Part shown: piece by piece, positions 21,001-36,000 of the stretch
Layout: every line of letters starts with the position of its first letter
Numbering within the stretch: position 1 is the stretch's first letter
Position numbers: made by a program
Source: Stylophora pistillata
Lineage: Eukaryota
Direction: 5' to 3'
Length of the DNA: 64,000 nucleotides
Assembly: GCF_002571385.2 (NCBI RefSeq)
Contig: NW_019217828.1
Span: 539,355-603,354, forward strand

Positions 21001-24000
21001 AAACTACTTATTCGCTGTAGTGTTTTATGAGCAAGAAAATTTGTACCAGTAATCATTTACAGTGGTAAGCATGTGACGAGTTGAGGCAAACACTCGACGA
21101 GTCCGAGTTTTGTTCAGTGCTCGCTGATGGAGTTAATGGGCGATTTTGTTTTAAACACAACAAGATGGGCAAAGCCCCAGATTTAAAATTGAAAAATATA
21201 GTTCCTGAACTGGAGGCCCGATGAAACCGAATAAACTCAAACCCAATCCCTTCTCTATTCGTCAACGCGTAGCATGGCGGGAAAATACAAACCGCGCATG
21301 TTTTTGAATAGGTTTTTGTGCATCGCAGTGTTTCGGTTTGTATTATTGTAAACATCCACATTTCCAGCTTTAAAGTTATTCCACCTACCTCTCTGCAAGT
21401 TATGTCGTTTGACGGTTATGCAAAGGACGTCTTTGAAAGTTGGAGCGATGTTGGCGTGGTTTACACGCGAAACAAATATGGCCGAGTAGTTTCACCTCCT
21501 GGGTTTTCGATAGGCTGCGAGAACAAGCATTCCTTCAAAAATAATATCCCCAAAGGTACTGGCTTTTCTTTTTTTGTTTTCATTAATGACAGTATATTTG
21601 CTTTATTTTCGTATGTGAGGATGTACAAAGTGCTCGACACGTACCGTACATTAGCAAGTGCGCAAAGGAAGGCGACATCCGTTGGCAGTTAACTTTGGCA
21701 AGATTTCCTGAAATCAAGGGTGAAATGTTGGAAAAAAATATTTGATCCTTTGACTCTCGAGATCTAATTACTAATTCTTCTTACTGTCAGATACAGTGAA
21801 ATATATGAAGTTCATATATTTTGAACTGCGGTATTAGATACGTATGATGCACGATCCTCGAAGTAGATAGCGCTATTTAAGCAATAGCGAAAATCAGACC
21901 TGAAAAAAAAAACACAATTCCTATGAGATTAGTTCTGGGAATTTGGTATTGTAAACTAATAATCAACTAATTTCTATTTTTCTCTAGTATAATTGTTCCG
22001 GTGATTATAGAGATGCGCGCGCTCTGATTGGTCGAGGATTACGTCACATCTCGCGATCGCCTGCGTAAGATGGTTATAGCAGGAGTACTTAATTTCAAAA
22101 TGACTGCCCCACGTTTTGTAAATGATTCCAAGGTAGTGACAAATGATAGAAGAAAAATCAATTGCGAAGGAAGCAAAAGATGCCACTGAGTTTGGTGGAG
22201 AAATACATGATGTTTAAACTGATTCAATTTAATATACCTTTTAAAACTGCTTGCTTATTTTGATGAGTCATCAGCACAGTTGCAACAAAAAATGCGTAAT
22301 GCATTCTTCATTTACAGAATTTACAACATAGTTATATAATTTGAAAGCTCATAAGCAATTACACAAATACAGTTATTCACCTTAGGCTCAGTGAATACTG
22401 GTATTGTTGAATAATCCCCTAGTCTTTGTCACAGGGATTATGCATTAATATTCACTTTGTCCACGGCAAATAATTGATAGTTATTTGCATTACTTGTTGC
22501 CTTGTATTGTAAAGAGAAAATTGGTCTTGGTCATTCATGGAAGTGAAAGGGGTCAACAAAAAAAAAATATCTTATTGTTGCTATGGTTATGTAGAGTCTT
22601 GGAAAAGAAAATTATTAGTAGGTAAAATGAGGTGATATGAAAGCAAATTAAAGATTTTTCCAAGTATTTCTCATACTCGATTGCAGCTCTTGTGCCACTT
22701 TTTTGTTCTTACTGCATTTTGATGTCACCTGTGATCTGTTACAGAATAGACACAGTGCAACATGGAATCCATTTCTTAAATTGAAACTGGAGAAAGTGTG
22801 ATAATTTCTCAATATCTAGATAATAAATGGATTTAATATTCCTTGCAGCAGTGCCTCTACATACTTCGTGGTGGTATATCCACAATCACTTAGGCTACAG
22901 GAAAATTACCTGTACAAAACAAGTTTATTTGAACAATTATAATTTCTCCTTTTTCATTTTGTGTCATTCACAGGAGCAAAGTGTTCATATACTATTAATA
23001 ACAACATCTACAATCCTCATTCCCTGTTTCTTATTTGCCTGGATTTTGTCGCCAAAAACATACGTCTGGTGGAATCATTGGAAGAATTTCCAGATATTGT
23101 AGGAGAACAACTTTTCCAAAAAGTCCAAGAGAATGATGGATTTGGAATAAATCCCAGAAATATGAAGATATTTTGTGAAGCATATGGTGAATTGGTTTTA
23201 TCAAAGCTGTCACTTAGCTCAGCACATGTATTTACAAGTAACTATTTGGAATATCTTCAACTGTTTGTGTGTCTGACAGAGCTTGATGTCAGTCATTGTC
23301 ATCTAGGGGATACACATGAGCTGTTACTATATATTGCTCATTTACACAGGTAAGTACAGTGTATTGCATCACCAAATTCTCTTTACTAGTTTTATTGTTC
23401 ATTAGCCTGAAGGGAGAATTTACTACCCAGATCTTTGAATAGCATAGCAGCATAATGGTAAGCCAGTGTTCTTGGTGAAAATTACAGCTGCGATCTTTGA
23501 TTTTAACAATAGCAGAAGGCTGGGTACAAAGAGAAATTTGGACTAGTGGGGTGAGAAACAGTCTATGGGAAGTGACAAGAGGAGAGGTTGGGACAGTAGG
23601 GGGTGTTAAGCTAGCGATCCTCTTTCCCTTTAGATTCTTGTCTGCACAATTTGTTGAAGGACATTGAGATAATTTGAATAAAAATATTTGTTATCACAAA
23701 AGTCTCAAAATGTGAAAGTTTTTTTATATCATCAACTTAGCACTATTATCAGCTGAATATAGCTGCATCTCTTTAGTTTCTTCAAATGGTCTTTTGGATA
23801 CATTGCCAGTAATTGGAATGATCAAGTTTTCTTCTTACAATAAAAATCTGCGATAAAATATTTTTATTGTAAAATCTTTTCACAAATCTTTACTTCAAGT
23901 TTTCTTAGAATATAAATTGAATTAGATGTCTATAAACCTTCATGTGTTGTGACACAAAAGTCATACATGCAATCATCATAGATTTACACCTAAACTGGTA

Positions 24001-33000: not shown

Positions 33001-36000
33001 TTTTAAAATAAGTATTGACAATTTGAAATGAAAGGCCTGTATGAACAATTTATCACTTGATACACTATACAAGACAGGTGGTTTAGTAATATGTAAAATC
33101 CTCGCCAAAGATTCCGTGACCCGAGAATCACGCTAGCAGCGGGAGCCATGTTTACCCAAGGTCAAATGAAAAGCGTTCAGTGGCGCGGTGCTCTTAAACC
33201 TGAACGCCATTGCGCAGCAACTGACTTCAAGTCAGAGTTATTTTAATTTTACGTTAAATTTAATTAAAAGTACACCTTTCGTTGAAAGCGAGAAAACAGC
33301 TTGTCGATTATATATCTTATTTTGAAACTTTTCAAAGCCGTGTCTCTTTGTACTTTCGGACACTCCTACAGTATGATACTTTACCTTTTCACCAACGAAC
33401 TCATCTAAGAAGAATAGATACTTTAAATCGGCAAGGTGTTAAGCTAGATTGCTTTATGTTCGCCTAATTTCTTTTCTCGTGCAGAATGTGCGCGCTTTTC
33501 GGATAACCAAGGTATATTAGAGTTAAATGATTGGTTCTACAACAATTGTTTTTTGGCCTCCCGGAGTTTTAACCACATGGAGCACATTGAAACGTTTCGA
33601 ACATGTCAAATTTTTGCCGAAATTTAAGAGCTAATGCTTGGTCAATGGAACAAATAATCTTCTCTGAGCGTTCGATTACCTTCTTGCCCTCACAAGACTT
33701 TATATGATGTTTTTGCGAGGGATTAAATCGTTTCGTGATCTGTTCCGTCTGTCCGATGACAGTCCAAAAAATTTGTTTTTCTTCTCGACTGCCACGAACC
33801 GCAAGTATAACAAATATGCTATTGAATTTGAAGCCCCAGAGGCCAGAATGAAAGACAAACAATGTCATTATTGTGTCTTATGCAAATCTCTGTAGAAACC
33901 CTGGCGTGAGCGAACGAATGCCTACCGGTCAAGAACGTCACCTATAGCTACGGAACGGTGTTTTTTTGAAATGGAGAAGCGGGTTTTCTTTACCGCAGTC
34001 TTGCGAAATTGCGGCTTAAATTTCCTGTACGTATTTCTTGTTGCCTCCTAAAAGCAGAGCCACAAAAGCCGGCCTTGTTTCGCGCAAAGAGAGAGAAAAT
34101 GTTGTGGCCAAGTCCATGAAAACATGATTGAATTAAGCGCAAAATGGCATTTGAATACCGCTCGTGAGTTCAAGTACGCCGCGCACTAAATGAATTTAAA
34201 TTTACTTTCTGGGTTATTTTTAGAAATTTCACAAAAACTAAACACCAAGAGCTGTTGTCTTTCTTAAGTGAAGTCGATATTCGACGTGGCGCTCTAAAGA
34301 TTTGGTGAAACATTTCTCTTGATCGCACAAATTGAGTGTAAAATAATTGACGCGGTCCATATGATAGAACGTTGAAACAATGCAAAACAAATACAAATCG
34401 ACATAATAAGTTTGTTGTACTACTCACCGTACACTTGTTGGGTTTCTCACCCGAGTGAACCCTCATGTGAATCACCAGTTTATATCTGGCGTTGAAAGCG
34501 CGACGCTGTCGGCTACACTCCTTCCAGTAACATATGTAAAGATCATCAGCTTTTCTTTGGTCGATGTGAACCTTCTCTATATGCCGCACTAAGTCATCTT
34601 GCTCTGAATAAAGTCCATCGCACCCAACCCATTTGCAAGGGAACACACTGCTCTCTTCGCTGGGAAGCGATTCCTTTATAACGTTTGATGAGCTGGTAGG
34701 AGGCTTCTCTTCTTTCACTGAATCCTCTCCGCTGTTCCATTTTTTCTCGTTCTCTGCCAGGGGAGCTTTCTTGTTGTCTTTGTCCGCCGGCGGAGACAAA
34801 AACTTACCAAATGTTTGCAAATGTTCTTTGAGAATTTGCTCAGATTTTGTCGTTCGGCTTCCAGACTTAAACAGTGGCGATAATTTGCTCCCCGGTACGA
34901 CGGTGACGTTGGGAGTGATAGATTCTGCCTGGTTACTCCACACCCGGTAATTCGCAAACGACCTCGGATTATAGTTTTGGTATGCCCTGTTTCTATCATA
35001 GGCATAGCCAGGGCTCGGTTCCGTTGGTGAAAGGTCCGAATCGGACTCGCTGTACGGAAAGAAATGCCGTGCTTGTGTCGAATGACATGGACTGCCAAGA
35101 TCTGAGTCAGATAGCGCGGAGCTCCCTGTTGACAGGGATGGCGAGAAGTTGTCAGCTCGAAATGACTGTTGTCGTCCATTGAAGTAGCTTCCAACGCCAT
35201 CAGAACCCGAACTTGACCAACTGCGACTACGCGGTGCTTCTGGGTAGCTGTACTGGCGAGCCGGGCGATTTATTTGGCCGCGACTTCCTTGAGAGCTAAA
35301 CCGAGACTGAGCGACGCCATTCCTGGCGAGTTCAGACACAAAGTTTGCCTTCTCGGCCAGCTCTGATAAGCCCGCTAGAGGGTTTATGTTTACCGGCTGT
35401 GGACAGTTCTGGAGAGAGGGAGGAAAGGATTCTACTCCAACACCTTGAGAATAATGCAAAGCAGCATTTTCTGCCGCAAATCCATTTTGCGCGGCGTTCA
35501 CGTTTGGCAACTTAACACCGCTTGATGTGGACATTCCACCATGTGTATTGTGATCCGTGTAATGATAATCAAACATGGCTGCAGTACTTCTCTCCGGTGG
35601 ATTAATCAACCTTCCATTGCCGGCGCCACAAGTTATTTCTTCCTGATCAAAAGAGTCATAACTTCTACTGTAATTTCTCATTCTTGACGCTACGGGGTCT
35701 TCGTGCGTTTCGCCTGAAAATTTTGGCCCTGACACTCGACCTGCGTAAAGCCCACTTCTAGATCCATACATTATGCTGTTGAAAGGCACAGGGGAGCTCA
35801 GAGCCCTGTTGGCCGTCTCTTCTAAAATTCCAGTTTCTTTTCTTTCGAGTTCCGCGGTGAAGGTTTTCACATTGATTTCTTGCAGTTGTTCGAGGTATTT
35901 GACTGTGTCTGAATAATCTTTCAAGGTTAGATCGGTATTTTCTCCTCTTACCACATTCCCCTATAAAGTTCAAATAACAAAGTAAACAAGGATAAACAAC

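What the first reader, a model, noticed from the sequence alone, without database searches (positions are those of the whole stretch)
21402..35960. LRRC42 and GLIS1/3 are immediate tail-to-tail neighbours: candidate ancient microsynteny
Seen: the two genes are convergent, with stop codons about 2.2 kb apart. Recalled knowledge: human GLIS1 and LRRC42 both map to 1p32.3, separated by only a few genes (NDC1, YIPF1, DIO1, HSPB11/IFT25). Inference: this linkage may predate the cnidarian-bilaterian split, in a genomic-regulatory-block arrangement with a developmental transcription factor and a housekeeping bystander gene.
Basis: partly seen in the sequence, partly recalled or inferred. Interest (0 to 1): 0.7.

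Follow-up and report, generated by a model that had tools for sequence, protein, structure and literature searches.

The report
Coral LRRC42–GLIS1/3 convergent neighbour pair
A coral genome carries the LRRC42 and GLIS1/3 genes tail to tail; this linkage has already been published for bilaterian animals and one sea anemone, so the window confirms it in another species.

Summary
An intact four-exon LRRC42 orthologue (+, 21402-26334) and a five-exon GLIS1/3 orthologue (-, 41265-28501) converge, with 2166 nt between their stop codons. The finding's end, 35960, is only the acceptor of the large GLIS exon. An 11-codon first coding exon lies at 41265-41233.

Both identities are supported exon by exon. 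No GLIS2 or full GLI sequence could be obtained, so no outgroup tree was built.

The linkage is not new. Yasuoka et al. 2019 (PMC6984359) describe a glis1/3-rfx3-ndc1-hspb11-lrrc42 cluster in bilaterians. [quoted passage not shown] This coral is a second hexacoral case and the tightest one. It favours a pre-bilaterian origin of the pair, though not of the five-gene cluster; no RFX, NDC1 or IFT25 domain was found in the 64 kb.

The regulatory-block mechanism stays untested, because no animal genomes were reachable.

Two new side observations:
- One 9.65 kb CpG-depleted block (o/e 0.19 against 0.95 elsewhere) runs from LRRC42 intron 1 across the spacer into GLIS exons 3-5.
- A canonical RFX X-box sits about 395 nt upstream of GLIS exon 2.

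The parts
21402..21555 (+). LRRC42 coding exon 1 (ATG at 21402; ends in phase 1)
   Evidence: tblastn of P0121 residues 1-59 gives 80% identity.
22974..23349 (+). LRRC42 exon 2
   Evidence: AG/GT borders. 87% identical to P0121 residues 52-176. Weak LRR_6 match, E 0.0067, below the Pfam cut-off.
24029..24293 (+). LRRC42 exon 3 (leucine-rich repeats)
   Evidence: On the ORF that holds it: LRR_6 E 1.5e-10, LRR_8 1.3e-08, LRR_4 7.6e-07. 88% identical to P0121 residues 177-267.
25837..26334 (+). LRRC42 exon 4, with stop TAG at 26332-26334
   Evidence: 74% identical to P0121 residues 266-429.
26335..28500 (.). Spacer of 2166 nt between the stops; probably mostly the two 3' UTRs
   Evidence: GC 0.32. 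AATAAA on + at 26723 and other places; AATAAA on - at 26890, 26443, 26402 and 26375. CpG o/e 0.16. No notable repeats.
28501..28887 (-). GLIS1/3 exon 5 (C-terminal region; stop TGA at 28503-28501)
   Evidence: 100% identical to P0001 residues 604-731. No Pfam family.
29196..29315 (-). GLIS1/3 exon 4 (zinc finger 5)
   Evidence: zf-C2H2 E 3.1e-05, 24.6 bits against a cut-off of 25.2. Junctions agree with P0001.
30428..30589 (-). GLIS1/3 exon 3 (zinc fingers 3-4)
   Evidence: zf-C2H2 E 3.3e-11. 100% identical to P0001 residues 510-563. GLI1 structure 2GLI 118.2 bits, ZIC3 84.5 bits.
34428..35960 (-). GLIS1/3 exon 2 (N-terminal region and zinc fingers 1-2, each with a tryptophan between its two cysteines)
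   Evidence: zf-C2H2_15 E 7.7e-17. 99% identical to P0001 over 100% of the query. CKWVGC and CYWKEC read directly from the sequence.
41233..41265 (-). GLIS1/3 first coding exon, 11 codons, outside the finding's coordinates
   Evidence: Best-scoring ATG-to-GT candidate in 35961-64000 against the N-termini of P0005 and P0015. 7 of 11 residues match Oculina's MDAVLESILQT by my count. GTAAGC donor, phase 0.
22200..31850 (.). Continuous CpG-depleted block bridging LRRC42 exons 2-4, the spacer and GLIS exons 3-5
   Evidence: CpG o/e 0.19, GpC 1.03, TpG 1.28, CpA 1.27, against 0.95, 1.05, 1.07 and 1.04 in the rest of the window. 71 blocks of the same length elsewhere have a minimum of 0.85.
36354..36367 (-). 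Candidate RFX X-box (GTTTCCATGGCAAC on the - strand) in GLIS intron 1, about 395 nt upstream of exon 2
   Evidence: The tight pattern gives 1 match, and 0 of 100 shuffles give any. CCAAT/ATTGG boxes flank it.

Best explanation
The window holds the single-copy coral orthologues of LRRC42 and of the pre-duplication GLIS1/3 zinc-finger gene as immediate convergent neighbours. This is a cnidarian instance of the published glis1/3-lrrc42 microsynteny. Most likely it was inherited from the cnidarian-bilaterian ancestor and did not arise by chance.

Shown here: gene structures, orientation, spacing and family identity.

Inferred: the pair is held together by cis-entanglement of the regulatory-block kind. 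LRRC42, with a housekeeping-like, germline-methylated signature, sits as a bystander inside the 3' domain of a developmentally regulated GLIS1/3. In this coral the short spacer is largely UTR. One continuous transcription and methylation footprint runs from LRRC42 across the spacer into GLIS exons 3-5, so few breakpoints would leave both units intact.

I put identity and ancient linkage at about 0.8. The mechanism is much less certain, at about 0.3-0.4.
For: Gene models: all splice sites are canonical and the frames are intact.

GLIS junctions match the 731-aa database protein P0001, which is 99% identical and stands for 164 member sequences. LRRC42 junctions match P0121 of Pocillopora damicornis.

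GLIS1/3 identity:
- Among the 120 listed of 363 hits to exon 2, every bilaterian row with a family name is GLIS1, GLIS3 or glis1a/b, except one row named UBE3A. None is named GLIS2, GLI or ZIC.
- The stand-in P0001 is 119/152 (78%) identical to sea-urchin GLIS3 over the five fingers.
- It is 74-80% identical to 28 bilaterian GLIS1/3-type rows.
- Fingers 1-2 of the window are only 33/71 identical to human GLI1, by my count from the alignment.
- In the tree the six cnidarian rows form one clade (97/97), and the 17 named vertebrate GLIS1 and GLIS3 rows plus one unnamed representative form another (91/83).

LRRC42 identity:
- The profile search gave 14 hits among 5095 candidates. Every row that carries a family name is LRRC42; four are vertebrate, at E 7.5e-52 to 8.7e-48.
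- In the Atlas, P0121 falls in the cluster 'Leucine-rich repeat-containing protein 42' (score 0.98, 223 of 256 features shared).

Linkage elsewhere: passages and sections 5, 9 and 10 of PMC6984359 report the five genes within 100-600 kb in most bilaterians, and glis1/3 with lrrc42 in the same vicinity in Nematostella.

Bystander signature: CpG o/e is 0.12 in LRRC42 exons 2-4 and 0.93 in GLIS exons 1-2. Passages of PMC8857923 say high gene-body methylation marks housekeeping genes and low marks developmental regulators.

Entanglement: the CpG-depleted block 22200-31850 crosses the gene boundary.
Against: PMC6984359 calls the cluster bilaterian-specific and says non-bilaterians other than Nematostella lack it. 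Which species were surveyed is given only in a supplementary table I could not open.

Only 2 of the 5 cluster genes are in this window. None of 420 ORFs scanned hit an RFX, NDC1 or IFT25-type domain.

The coral and Nematostella are both hexacorals, so they count as one cnidarian lineage.

In human the two genes are separated by other genes. As I recall, they are also not tail to tail there, so 3' entanglement cannot explain retention in bilaterians.

The authors found no non-coding element conserved across bilaterians.

LRRC42's introns total only 3640 nt, are CpG-depleted and are partly filled with palindromic, transposon-like inserts. That leaves little room for enhancer arrays.

No tree with GLIS2/NKL or GLI outgroups was made.
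Confidence: 0.55

Rival explanations
1. Co-regulated 'ciliogenic' module, the reading of Yasuoka et al. The genes stay together because they are switched on together, by RFX-type factors, for making cilia. In this view LRRC42 works with GLIS1/3.
For: PMC6984359 sections 9 and 10 argue this for bilaterians. A canonical X-box lies in GLIS intron 1 at 36354-36367; it is the only match to the tight pattern, and 0 of 100 shuffles gave any. The looser X-box pattern gave 10 matches against 3.1 expected by chance.
Against: The genes are convergent, so they cannot share a promoter. Their CpG signatures are opposite (0.12 against 0.93), which points to different expression regimes. Only a 1-mismatch match to the degenerate pattern lies near the 5' end of LRRC42, at 22577-22590 in intron 1. 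rfx3, ndc1 and hspb11 were not detected in the window. The paper itself presents LRRC42's role in cilia as a suggestion.
Confidence: 0.2
2. Neutral leftover. The two genes were on the same ancestral chromosome and have simply not been separated yet in slowly rearranging hexacoral genomes. No constraint acts on them.
For: Direct evidence in cnidarians comes from hexacorals only (this window; Nematostella). The other non-bilaterians surveyed lack the arrangement. Gene order differs between coral, where the genes are adjacent, and human, where other genes lie between them.
Against: The same unrelated pair is linked in several bilaterian phyla. The authors estimate a false-positive rate under 0.1% for the cluster (Methods passage). 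By my own estimate, immediate adjacency by chance is of the order of 10^-4 to 10^-3.
Confidence: 0.2
3. Artefact: mis-assembly, or a pseudogene copy beside the real gene.
For: None found.
Against: Both genes have intact frames and canonical splice sites. There is no N in 21402-41265. The GLIS exons are 100% identical to P0001 for exons 3 and 5, and 95% and 97% for the alignments over exons 4 and 2, which run a little past the exon borders into intron. I take P0001 to be transcript-derived.
Confidence: 0.03

Closest known systems
The glis1/3-rfx3-ndc1-hspb11-lrrc42 'ciliogenic gene cluster' of bilaterians (Yasuoka et al. 2019, Mol Biol Evol, PMC6984359; abstract, sections 5, 9 and 10 and passages read)
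   Same: The same two unrelated genes, glis1/3 and lrrc42, are linked.
   Different: Only two of the five genes are seen in 64 kb. The two are immediate neighbours 2.2 kb apart, not spread over 100-600 kb. The animal is a cnidarian, whereas the paper calls the cluster bilaterian-specific.
[quoted passage not shown]
   Same: A hexacoral cnidarian with the same pair linked. The window's GLIS exon 2 matches a Nematostella protein, P0028, at E 2.8e-57, and P0028 lines up with exons 2-5 in order.
   Different: Distance and orientation in Nematostella are not given in the main text; the supplement was closed. I could not confirm that P0028 is the gene the paper means.
Genomic regulatory blocks: a developmental regulator whose long-range enhancers lie in and around unrelated bystander genes (concept recalled from Kikuta 2007, Engstrom 2007 and Irimia 2012; those papers were not read here)
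   Same: A developmental zinc-finger factor lies beside an unrelated gene with a housekeeping-like CpG signature, and the linkage is conserved across phyla.
   Different: No conserved non-coding elements have been shown. The bystander is very compact (4.9 kb) and lies 3' of the target.
Invertebrate gene-body methylation domains inferred from CpG depletion (PMC8857923, passages read)
   Same: LRRC42's first exon is CpG-rich (o/e 1.32) and the rest of its body is strongly depleted (0.12).
   Different: The depleted block does not stop at the gene's end. It continues 5.5 kb into the 3' third of the convergent neighbour.

Membership tests
GLI/GLIS/ZIC superfamily | Five tandem C2H2 zinc fingers | tested here: met
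   Fingers 1-2 lie in exon 2, fingers 3-4 in exon 3 and finger 5 in exon 4, read directly. Pfam gives zf-C2H2_15 at E 7.7e-17 and zf-C2H2 at 3.3e-11 and 3.1e-05.
GLI/GLIS/ZIC superfamily | Tandem CWCH2 motif: a tryptophan between the two cysteines of finger 1 and of finger 2 (Hatayama and Aruga 2010, PMC2837044, start of abstract seen in a search listing; also the introduction passage of PMC6984359) | tested here: met
   CKWVGC and CYWKEC in exon 2. The best solved-structure match of fingers 1-2 is five-finger GLI1, 2GLI, at 88.2 bits, followed by ZIC3 at 73 bits.
GLIS1/3 subfamily (as against GLIS2/NKL, GLI, ZIC) | Closest named relatives are GLIS1 or GLIS3 | tested here: met
   among the 120 listed of 363 hits, bilaterian rows with a family name are GLIS1, GLIS3 or glis1a/b (one row is named UBE3A), and none is GLIS2, GLI or ZIC. 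Vertebrate GLI proteins mostly exceed that search's 895-residue limit, so their absence carries no weight; 78% identity to sea-urchin GLIS3 over 152 residues; 33/71 to GLI1 for fingers 1-2.
GLIS1/3 subfamily (as against GLIS2/NKL, GLI, ZIC) | Groups with GLIS1/3, and not with GLIS2/NKL or GLI, in a tree that includes those outgroups | not tested
   No GLIS2/NKL, full GLI or ZIC sequence could be obtained. The literature shows that Nematostella has separate NvGlis (glis1/3 clade), NvNkl (glis2 clade) and NvGli genes (PMC2988786 passages).
GLIS1/3 subfamily (as against GLIS2/NKL, GLI, ZIC) | Pre-duplication co-orthologue: falls outside the vertebrate GLIS1+GLIS3 clade | tested here: met
   34 rows, 151 columns, unrooted. 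Cnidarians form a clade at 97/97. The vertebrate GLIS1 and GLIS3 rows plus one unnamed representative form a clade at 91/83. P0001 stood in for the window's gene.
LRRC42 | Leucine-rich repeats of the LRR_6 (RNI-like) type in a protein of about 430 aa | tested here: met
   LRR_6 E 1.5e-10 on the exon 3 ORF. The CDS has 430 codons. P0121 has 429 aa.
LRRC42 | Closest named relatives outside cnidarians are LRRC42 | tested here: met
   14 hits among 5095 candidates. The four vertebrate rows are all named LRRC42, at 33-40% identity; the Atlas cluster 'Leucine-rich repeat-containing protein 42' scores 0.98 for the stand-in P0121.
LRRC42 | Reciprocal best hit from a vertebrate LRRC42 back to this gene | not tested
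Five-gene 'ciliogenic cluster' (PMC6984359) | At least three of glis1/3, rfx3, ndc1, hspb11 and lrrc42 with at most 10 intervening genes (criteria in the Methods passage) | tested here: inconclusive
   Two of the five are present. Of 343 flank ORFs (90, 118 and 135) and 77 internal ORFs, none hit an RFX DNA-binding, Ndc1 or F5/8-type-C domain (the Pfam names are recalled). Exons under 44 aa would be missed, and the cluster can span up to 600 kb, far beyond this window.
Genomic regulatory block | Conserved non-coding elements of the target gene inside or beyond the bystander | not testable with these tools
Genomic regulatory block | Bystander expressed independently of the target | tested here: inconclusive
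   Only an indirect proxy is available: CpG o/e of 0.12 in the LRRC42 body against 0.93 in GLIS exons 1-2. No expression data.

The most novel reading that the evidence does not exclude
The glis1/3-lrrc42 pair is the ancestral nucleus of the bilaterian 'ciliogenic' cluster and was already adjacent in the cnidarian-bilaterian ancestor. In corals it is locked by overlapping convergent transcription: constitutive LRRC42 transcription, or an internal GLIS promoter near 32-34 kb, lays one germline-methylated domain across the spacer and GLIS exons 3-5. An RFX site in GLIS intron 1 would show that the RFX-to-GLIS link is older than the physical clustering with rfx3.
Probability: 0.15. Interest if true: 0.6.

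Novelty: new member of a known kind. Interest (0 to 1): 0.3.

Why it matters
The linkage itself is published, so the main value is confirmation. A reef coral keeps the pair in its tightest known form. This weakens the view that the association began in bilaterians and suggests the five-gene cluster grew around an older two-gene core.

The CpG-depleted block that ignores the gene boundary is a concrete lead. It can be tested with bisulfite and long-read RNA data, and it bears on how a constitutive gene and a developmental regulator can be physically entangled.

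Tried and rejected

2. Matching 'longest contig' lengths between the GLIS rows and the LRRC42 rows. No length is shared, but no named species occurs in both lists, so this says nothing.

3. Representative search with P0001. There were 94196 hits at E<=0.001. The top 150 were mostly multi-finger proteins with 4-35 matched stretches, and about 18 rows had a single stretch. No GLIS2, GLI or ZIC outgroup was recovered.

4. Atlas search on the finger region of P0001. It did not discriminate: a ZIC-type cluster ranked 2nd at 0.96, and 'Zinc finger protein GLIS3' ranked 4th at 0.94.

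5. First attempt to find the GLIS 5' exon by ungapped scoring. It found only a stretch inside the LINE element. A search restricted to ATG-to-GT candidates then found it.

6. Rfam on 20000-42000 gave 0 matches. Repeats in the spacer were only short, chance-level families.

7. Literature. Searches returned only PMC6984359 as relevant, and one search returned nothing. Within the searched library I found no print mention of this pair in a coral.

8. Complex prediction and structure prediction were not used, because I make no binding claim.

Full report
WHAT IS THERE

The window is AT-rich animal DNA with GC of 0.32-0.45 per 2 kb. It holds only 10 N, at 9523 and 11010-11018, all outside the finding.

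On the + strand lies a four-exon gene: 21402-21555, 22974-23349, 24029-24293 and 25837-26334. It starts with ATG at 21402 and ends with TAG at 26332-26334. Every intron is GT..AG, the phases are consistent, and the CDS has 430 codons plus stop.

On the - strand lies a five-exon gene: 41265-41233, 35960-34428, 30589-30428, 29315-29196 and 28887-28501. It ends with TGA at 28503-28501. All introns are phase 0 and GT..AG, and the CDS has 744 codons plus stop.

The genes converge, and 2166 nt separate the stop codons.

The end coordinate of the finding is not the start of the gene. Position 35960 is where an in-frame TAG coincides with the AG acceptor of the large exon. Annotated relatives from Oculina and Montipora carry about 18 more N-terminal residues. 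A search of ATG-to-GT candidates upstream found MDDVLECTLPT followed by GTAAGC at 41265-41233 as the best match to them.

HOW THE SEARCHES WERE DONE

Where a full-length protein was needed I used database proteins as stand-ins:
- P0001: 731 aa, 99% identical to exon 2, with alignments over exons 3-5 that are 95-100% identical.
- P0121: Pocillopora damicornis, 429 aa, 74-88% identical to the four LRRC42 exons.

IDENTITY OF THE ZINC-FINGER GENE

Exon 2 carries fingers 1-2, each with a tryptophan between its cysteines (CKWVGC, CYWKEC). Exon 3 carries fingers 3-4 and exon 4 carries finger 5. Pfam gives zf-C2H2_15 at E 7.7e-17.

Exon 2 alone found 363 proteins at E<=0.001 among 8000 scored candidates, of which 120 were listed. 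After the coral and anemone orthologues, every bilaterian row with a family name is GLIS1, GLIS3 or glis1a/b, at 47-71% identity over the finger part. One row is named UBE3A. None is named GLIS2, GLI or ZIC. That search admitted only proteins of 281-895 residues, so long GLI proteins could not appear. The cnidarian rows carry automatic names: 'GLI1' for Nematostella, 'GLI3-like' for Dendronephthya and 'zinc finger protein 343-like' for Xenia.

Further comparisons:
- Fingers 1-2 against solved structures: best match human GLI1 (2GLI, 88.2 bits; 33 of 71 aligned positions identical by my count), then ZIC3 (73 bits).
- Fingers 3-4: 118.2 bits for GLI1 and 84.5 bits for ZIC3.
- P0001 against sea-urchin GLIS3: 119/152 identical across all five fingers.
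- P0001 against 28 bilaterian GLIS1/3-type rows: 74-80% identical.

A maximum-likelihood tree of 34 rows and 151 columns has no outgroup. It puts the six cnidarian rows in one clade (97/97). The vertebrate GLIS1 and GLIS3 rows, plus one unnamed representative, form another (91/83). The coral gene is therefore a co-orthologue of both, 'GLIS1/3', as PMC6984359 section 5 describes for invertebrates.

The placement against GLIS2/NKL and GLI remains untested, because I could obtain none of those sequences. Layden et al. 2010 show that Nematostella has separate Glis, Nkl (glis2-type) and Gli genes, so the distinction matters in cnidarians (PMC2988786 passages).

IDENTITY OF THE LRR GENE

The exon 3 ORF matches LRR_6 (E 1.5e-10), LRR_8 and LRR_4. 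Exon 1 matches no family. Exons 2 and 4 have only matches below the Pfam cut-off, LRR_6 at 0.0067 and DUF7086 at 0.002.

Exon 2 found five coral proteins among 119 candidates; two of them carry UniRef names beginning 'Leucine-rich repeat-containing protein', and one reads '42' in full. A profile of those five found 14 proteins among 5095 candidates. All named rows are LRRC42, including four vertebrates at E 7.5e-52 to 8.7e-48 and 33-40% identity. The Atlas places P0121 in a cluster of 801 members, mostly chordate, named 'Leucine-rich repeat-containing protein 42' (score 0.98, 223 of 256 features). A reciprocal search from a vertebrate LRRC42 was not run.

IS THE LINKAGE KNOWN?

Yes. Two full-text searches led to Yasuoka et al. 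2019, PMC6984359. I read its abstract, sections 5, 9 and 10, and passages of the methods and legends. It makes these points:
- glis1/3, rfx3, ndc1, hspb11 and lrrc42 lie within 100-600 kb in most bilaterian genomes.
- The common ancestor of bilaterians assembled the cluster.
- The pattern is explained by a shared role in cilia.
- Two human ultraconserved elements near the cluster are not conserved among bilaterians.

yipf1, dio1, hspb11 and lrrc42 are named as genes surrounding glis1, and ndc1 is a cluster member.

Further searches found no other paper on this pair, and none mentions a coral. The paper's supplementary table lists the genomes surveyed. I could not open it, so I cannot say whether corals were among the 'others'.

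WHAT THIS WINDOW ADDS

It is a second hexacoral with the pair, here as immediate neighbours. With Nematostella this places the linkage at least in the hexacoral ancestor. Together with the bilaterian data, it makes an origin of the pair before the cnidarian-bilaterian split the simpler reading. Both cnidarians belong to one subclass, however, so this amounts to one independent lineage.

The full cluster is not here. I scanned 420 stop-to-stop ORFs against Pfam:
- 208 beyond 36000 (90 of 60 aa or more, and 118 of 44-59 aa)
- 135 of 50 aa or more below 21300
- 77 of 44 aa or more between the known exons

The left flank gave only rhodopsin-type receptors (2 ORFs), reverse transcriptase (2), a nuclear-receptor DNA-binding domain and a ligand-binding domain (1 each), and weak hits. 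The right flank and the introns gave nothing above chance level. No RFX, Ndc1 or IFT25-type domain appeared; those family names are recalled. Short exons would be missed, and the cluster can extend far beyond 64 kb.

Cross-species synteny could not be computed.

MECHANISM

Orientation rules out a shared promoter.

CpG content separates the two genes sharply:

| Region | CpG o/e |
|---|---|
| LRRC42 exon 1 | 1.32 |
| LRRC42 upstream 1 kb | 0.99 |
| LRRC42 exons 2-4 | 0.12 |
| GLIS exons 1-2 | 0.93 |
| GLIS intron 1 | 1.08 |

In cnidarians and other invertebrates, CpG loss marks germline gene-body methylation. Heavily methylated genes tend to be housekeeping genes, and lightly methylated ones tend to be developmental or inducible (PMC8857923 passages).

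The depleted region does not end with LRRC42, which was unexpected. One block of 9651 nt (about 22200-31850) runs through the spacer and GLIS exons 3-5 into intron 2. Its values are CpG o/e 0.19, GpC 1.03, TpG 1.28 and CpA 1.27. The rest of the window has 0.95, 1.05, 1.07 and 1.04. The lowest value among 71 blocks of the same length elsewhere is 0.85. GLIS exons 3-5 have 0.22.

Possible causes are:
- read-through of LRRC42 transcription, antisense to the GLIS 3' exons;
- a germline-active internal GLIS promoter in the CpG-rich 32-34 kb part of intron 2;
- spreading of methylation.

I cannot tell these apart.

The spacer has poly(A) signals for LRRC42 at 26723 and, on the other strand, at 26890. 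The longest contig recorded for P0001 is 3970 nt against a 2235-nt CDS. The GLIS 3' UTR may therefore fill most of the spacer, and the two 3' ends may lie within a few hundred bases of each other. This is inference.

I take cis-entanglement of the regulatory-block kind as the best explanation, for three reasons: the linkage of unrelated genes around a developmental regulator is conserved across phyla, the expression signatures are opposite, and the two units are physically interleaved here. It is not demonstrated. LRRC42's introns total only 3640 nt, and part of that is palindromic inserts. The authors found no deeply conserved element. As I recall, the human genes are not tail to tail.

THE CILIA READING

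A canonical palindromic RFX X-box (GTTTCCATGGCAAC on the - strand) lies at 36354-36367, about 395 nt upstream of GLIS exon 2. It is flanked by CCAAT/ATTGG boxes. It is the only match to the tight pattern in 64 kb, and none of 100 shuffles gave one.

It may mark an alternative promoter. P0001 begins at a GTG two codons inside exon 2, as if its source carried the intron's TAG upstream; a truncated contig would look the same.

This fits an RFX-to-GLIS link, but it says nothing about LRRC42.

VERDICT

This window is a new species instance of it and gives two testable side leads.

Noticed in passing
window 22200-31850: A single contiguous CpG-depleted block (CpG o/e 0.19, with TpG and CpA excess and GpC normal) crosses from the LRRC42 body over the spacer into GLIS exons 3-5 and ends inside GLIS intron 2. 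The rest of the window is at about 0.95.
   Followed up: partly
window 36354-36367: A canonical palindromic RFX X-box with flanking CCAAT/ATTGG boxes, about 395 nt upstream of GLIS exon 2. It is the only tight-pattern match in the window, and 0 of 100 shuffles gave one. It may mark an alternative promoter.
   Followed up: partly
window 22010-22065: A CpG-rich motif cluster (ATTGG, ACGTCA, TCTCGCGA) in LRRC42 intron 1, just before the sharp start of the CpG-depleted block. An ATG-led ORF with a possible GT donor follows at about 22070-22130. It could be an internal or alternative promoter.
   Followed up: no
window 24687-24742 and 25066-25218: Two hairpin palindromes in LRRC42 intron 3: 27-nt arms 100% complementary, and 74-nt arms 88% complementary. 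They flank a short ORF (24740-24910) and hold most of the CpGs remaining in that part of the block, so they look like young transposon-derived inserts.
   Followed up: partly
window 41273-41284: A four-codon upstream ORF (ATG AAA CTC TAA) lies just before the GLIS start codon, out of frame with it. Oculina and Montipora proteins have about 7 more N-terminal residues (MKVEKTE.., MKLLKRE..), so the start seems to have shifted in this species.
   Followed up: no
window 42266-64000: About 22 kb upstream of GLIS has no ORF with a credible Pfam match (208 ORFs of 44 aa or more beyond 36000 were scanned) and has CpG o/e 0.93. It may be regulatory landscape or simply unannotated.
   Followed up: partly
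window 6630-9014 (+): A nuclear-receptor gene: DNA-binding domain (zf-C4, E 3.8e-27) and ligand-binding domain (E 1.4e-06). Its closest solved structures are COUP-TF1 and RXR, so it is NR2-like.
   Followed up: partly
window 13843-14796 and 18607-19635 (+): Two long single-exon ORFs of 317 and 342 aa that look like rhodopsin-family receptors. 7tm_1 matched 2 of the 135 left-flank ORFs scanned, and I assume these are the two.
   Followed up: partly
window 9461-11086 (-) and 15134-16097 (-): Reverse-transcriptase ORFs of LINE-like elements. RVT_1 matched 2 of the 135 left-flank ORFs scanned. The first element contains the window's N positions.
   Followed up: no
window 16332-16744 (+): A tandem repeat that is open in three frames (repeated ..QNTSTNTKHFHKYKTLPQI..). 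Two left-flank ORFs gave weak Vps53_N hits (best E 3.6e-04); I did not locate them, and they may come from this repeat.
   Followed up: no
window 11001-12000: One kilobase with no CpG at all and GC about 0.32, next to the N run and the LINE element.
   Followed up: no
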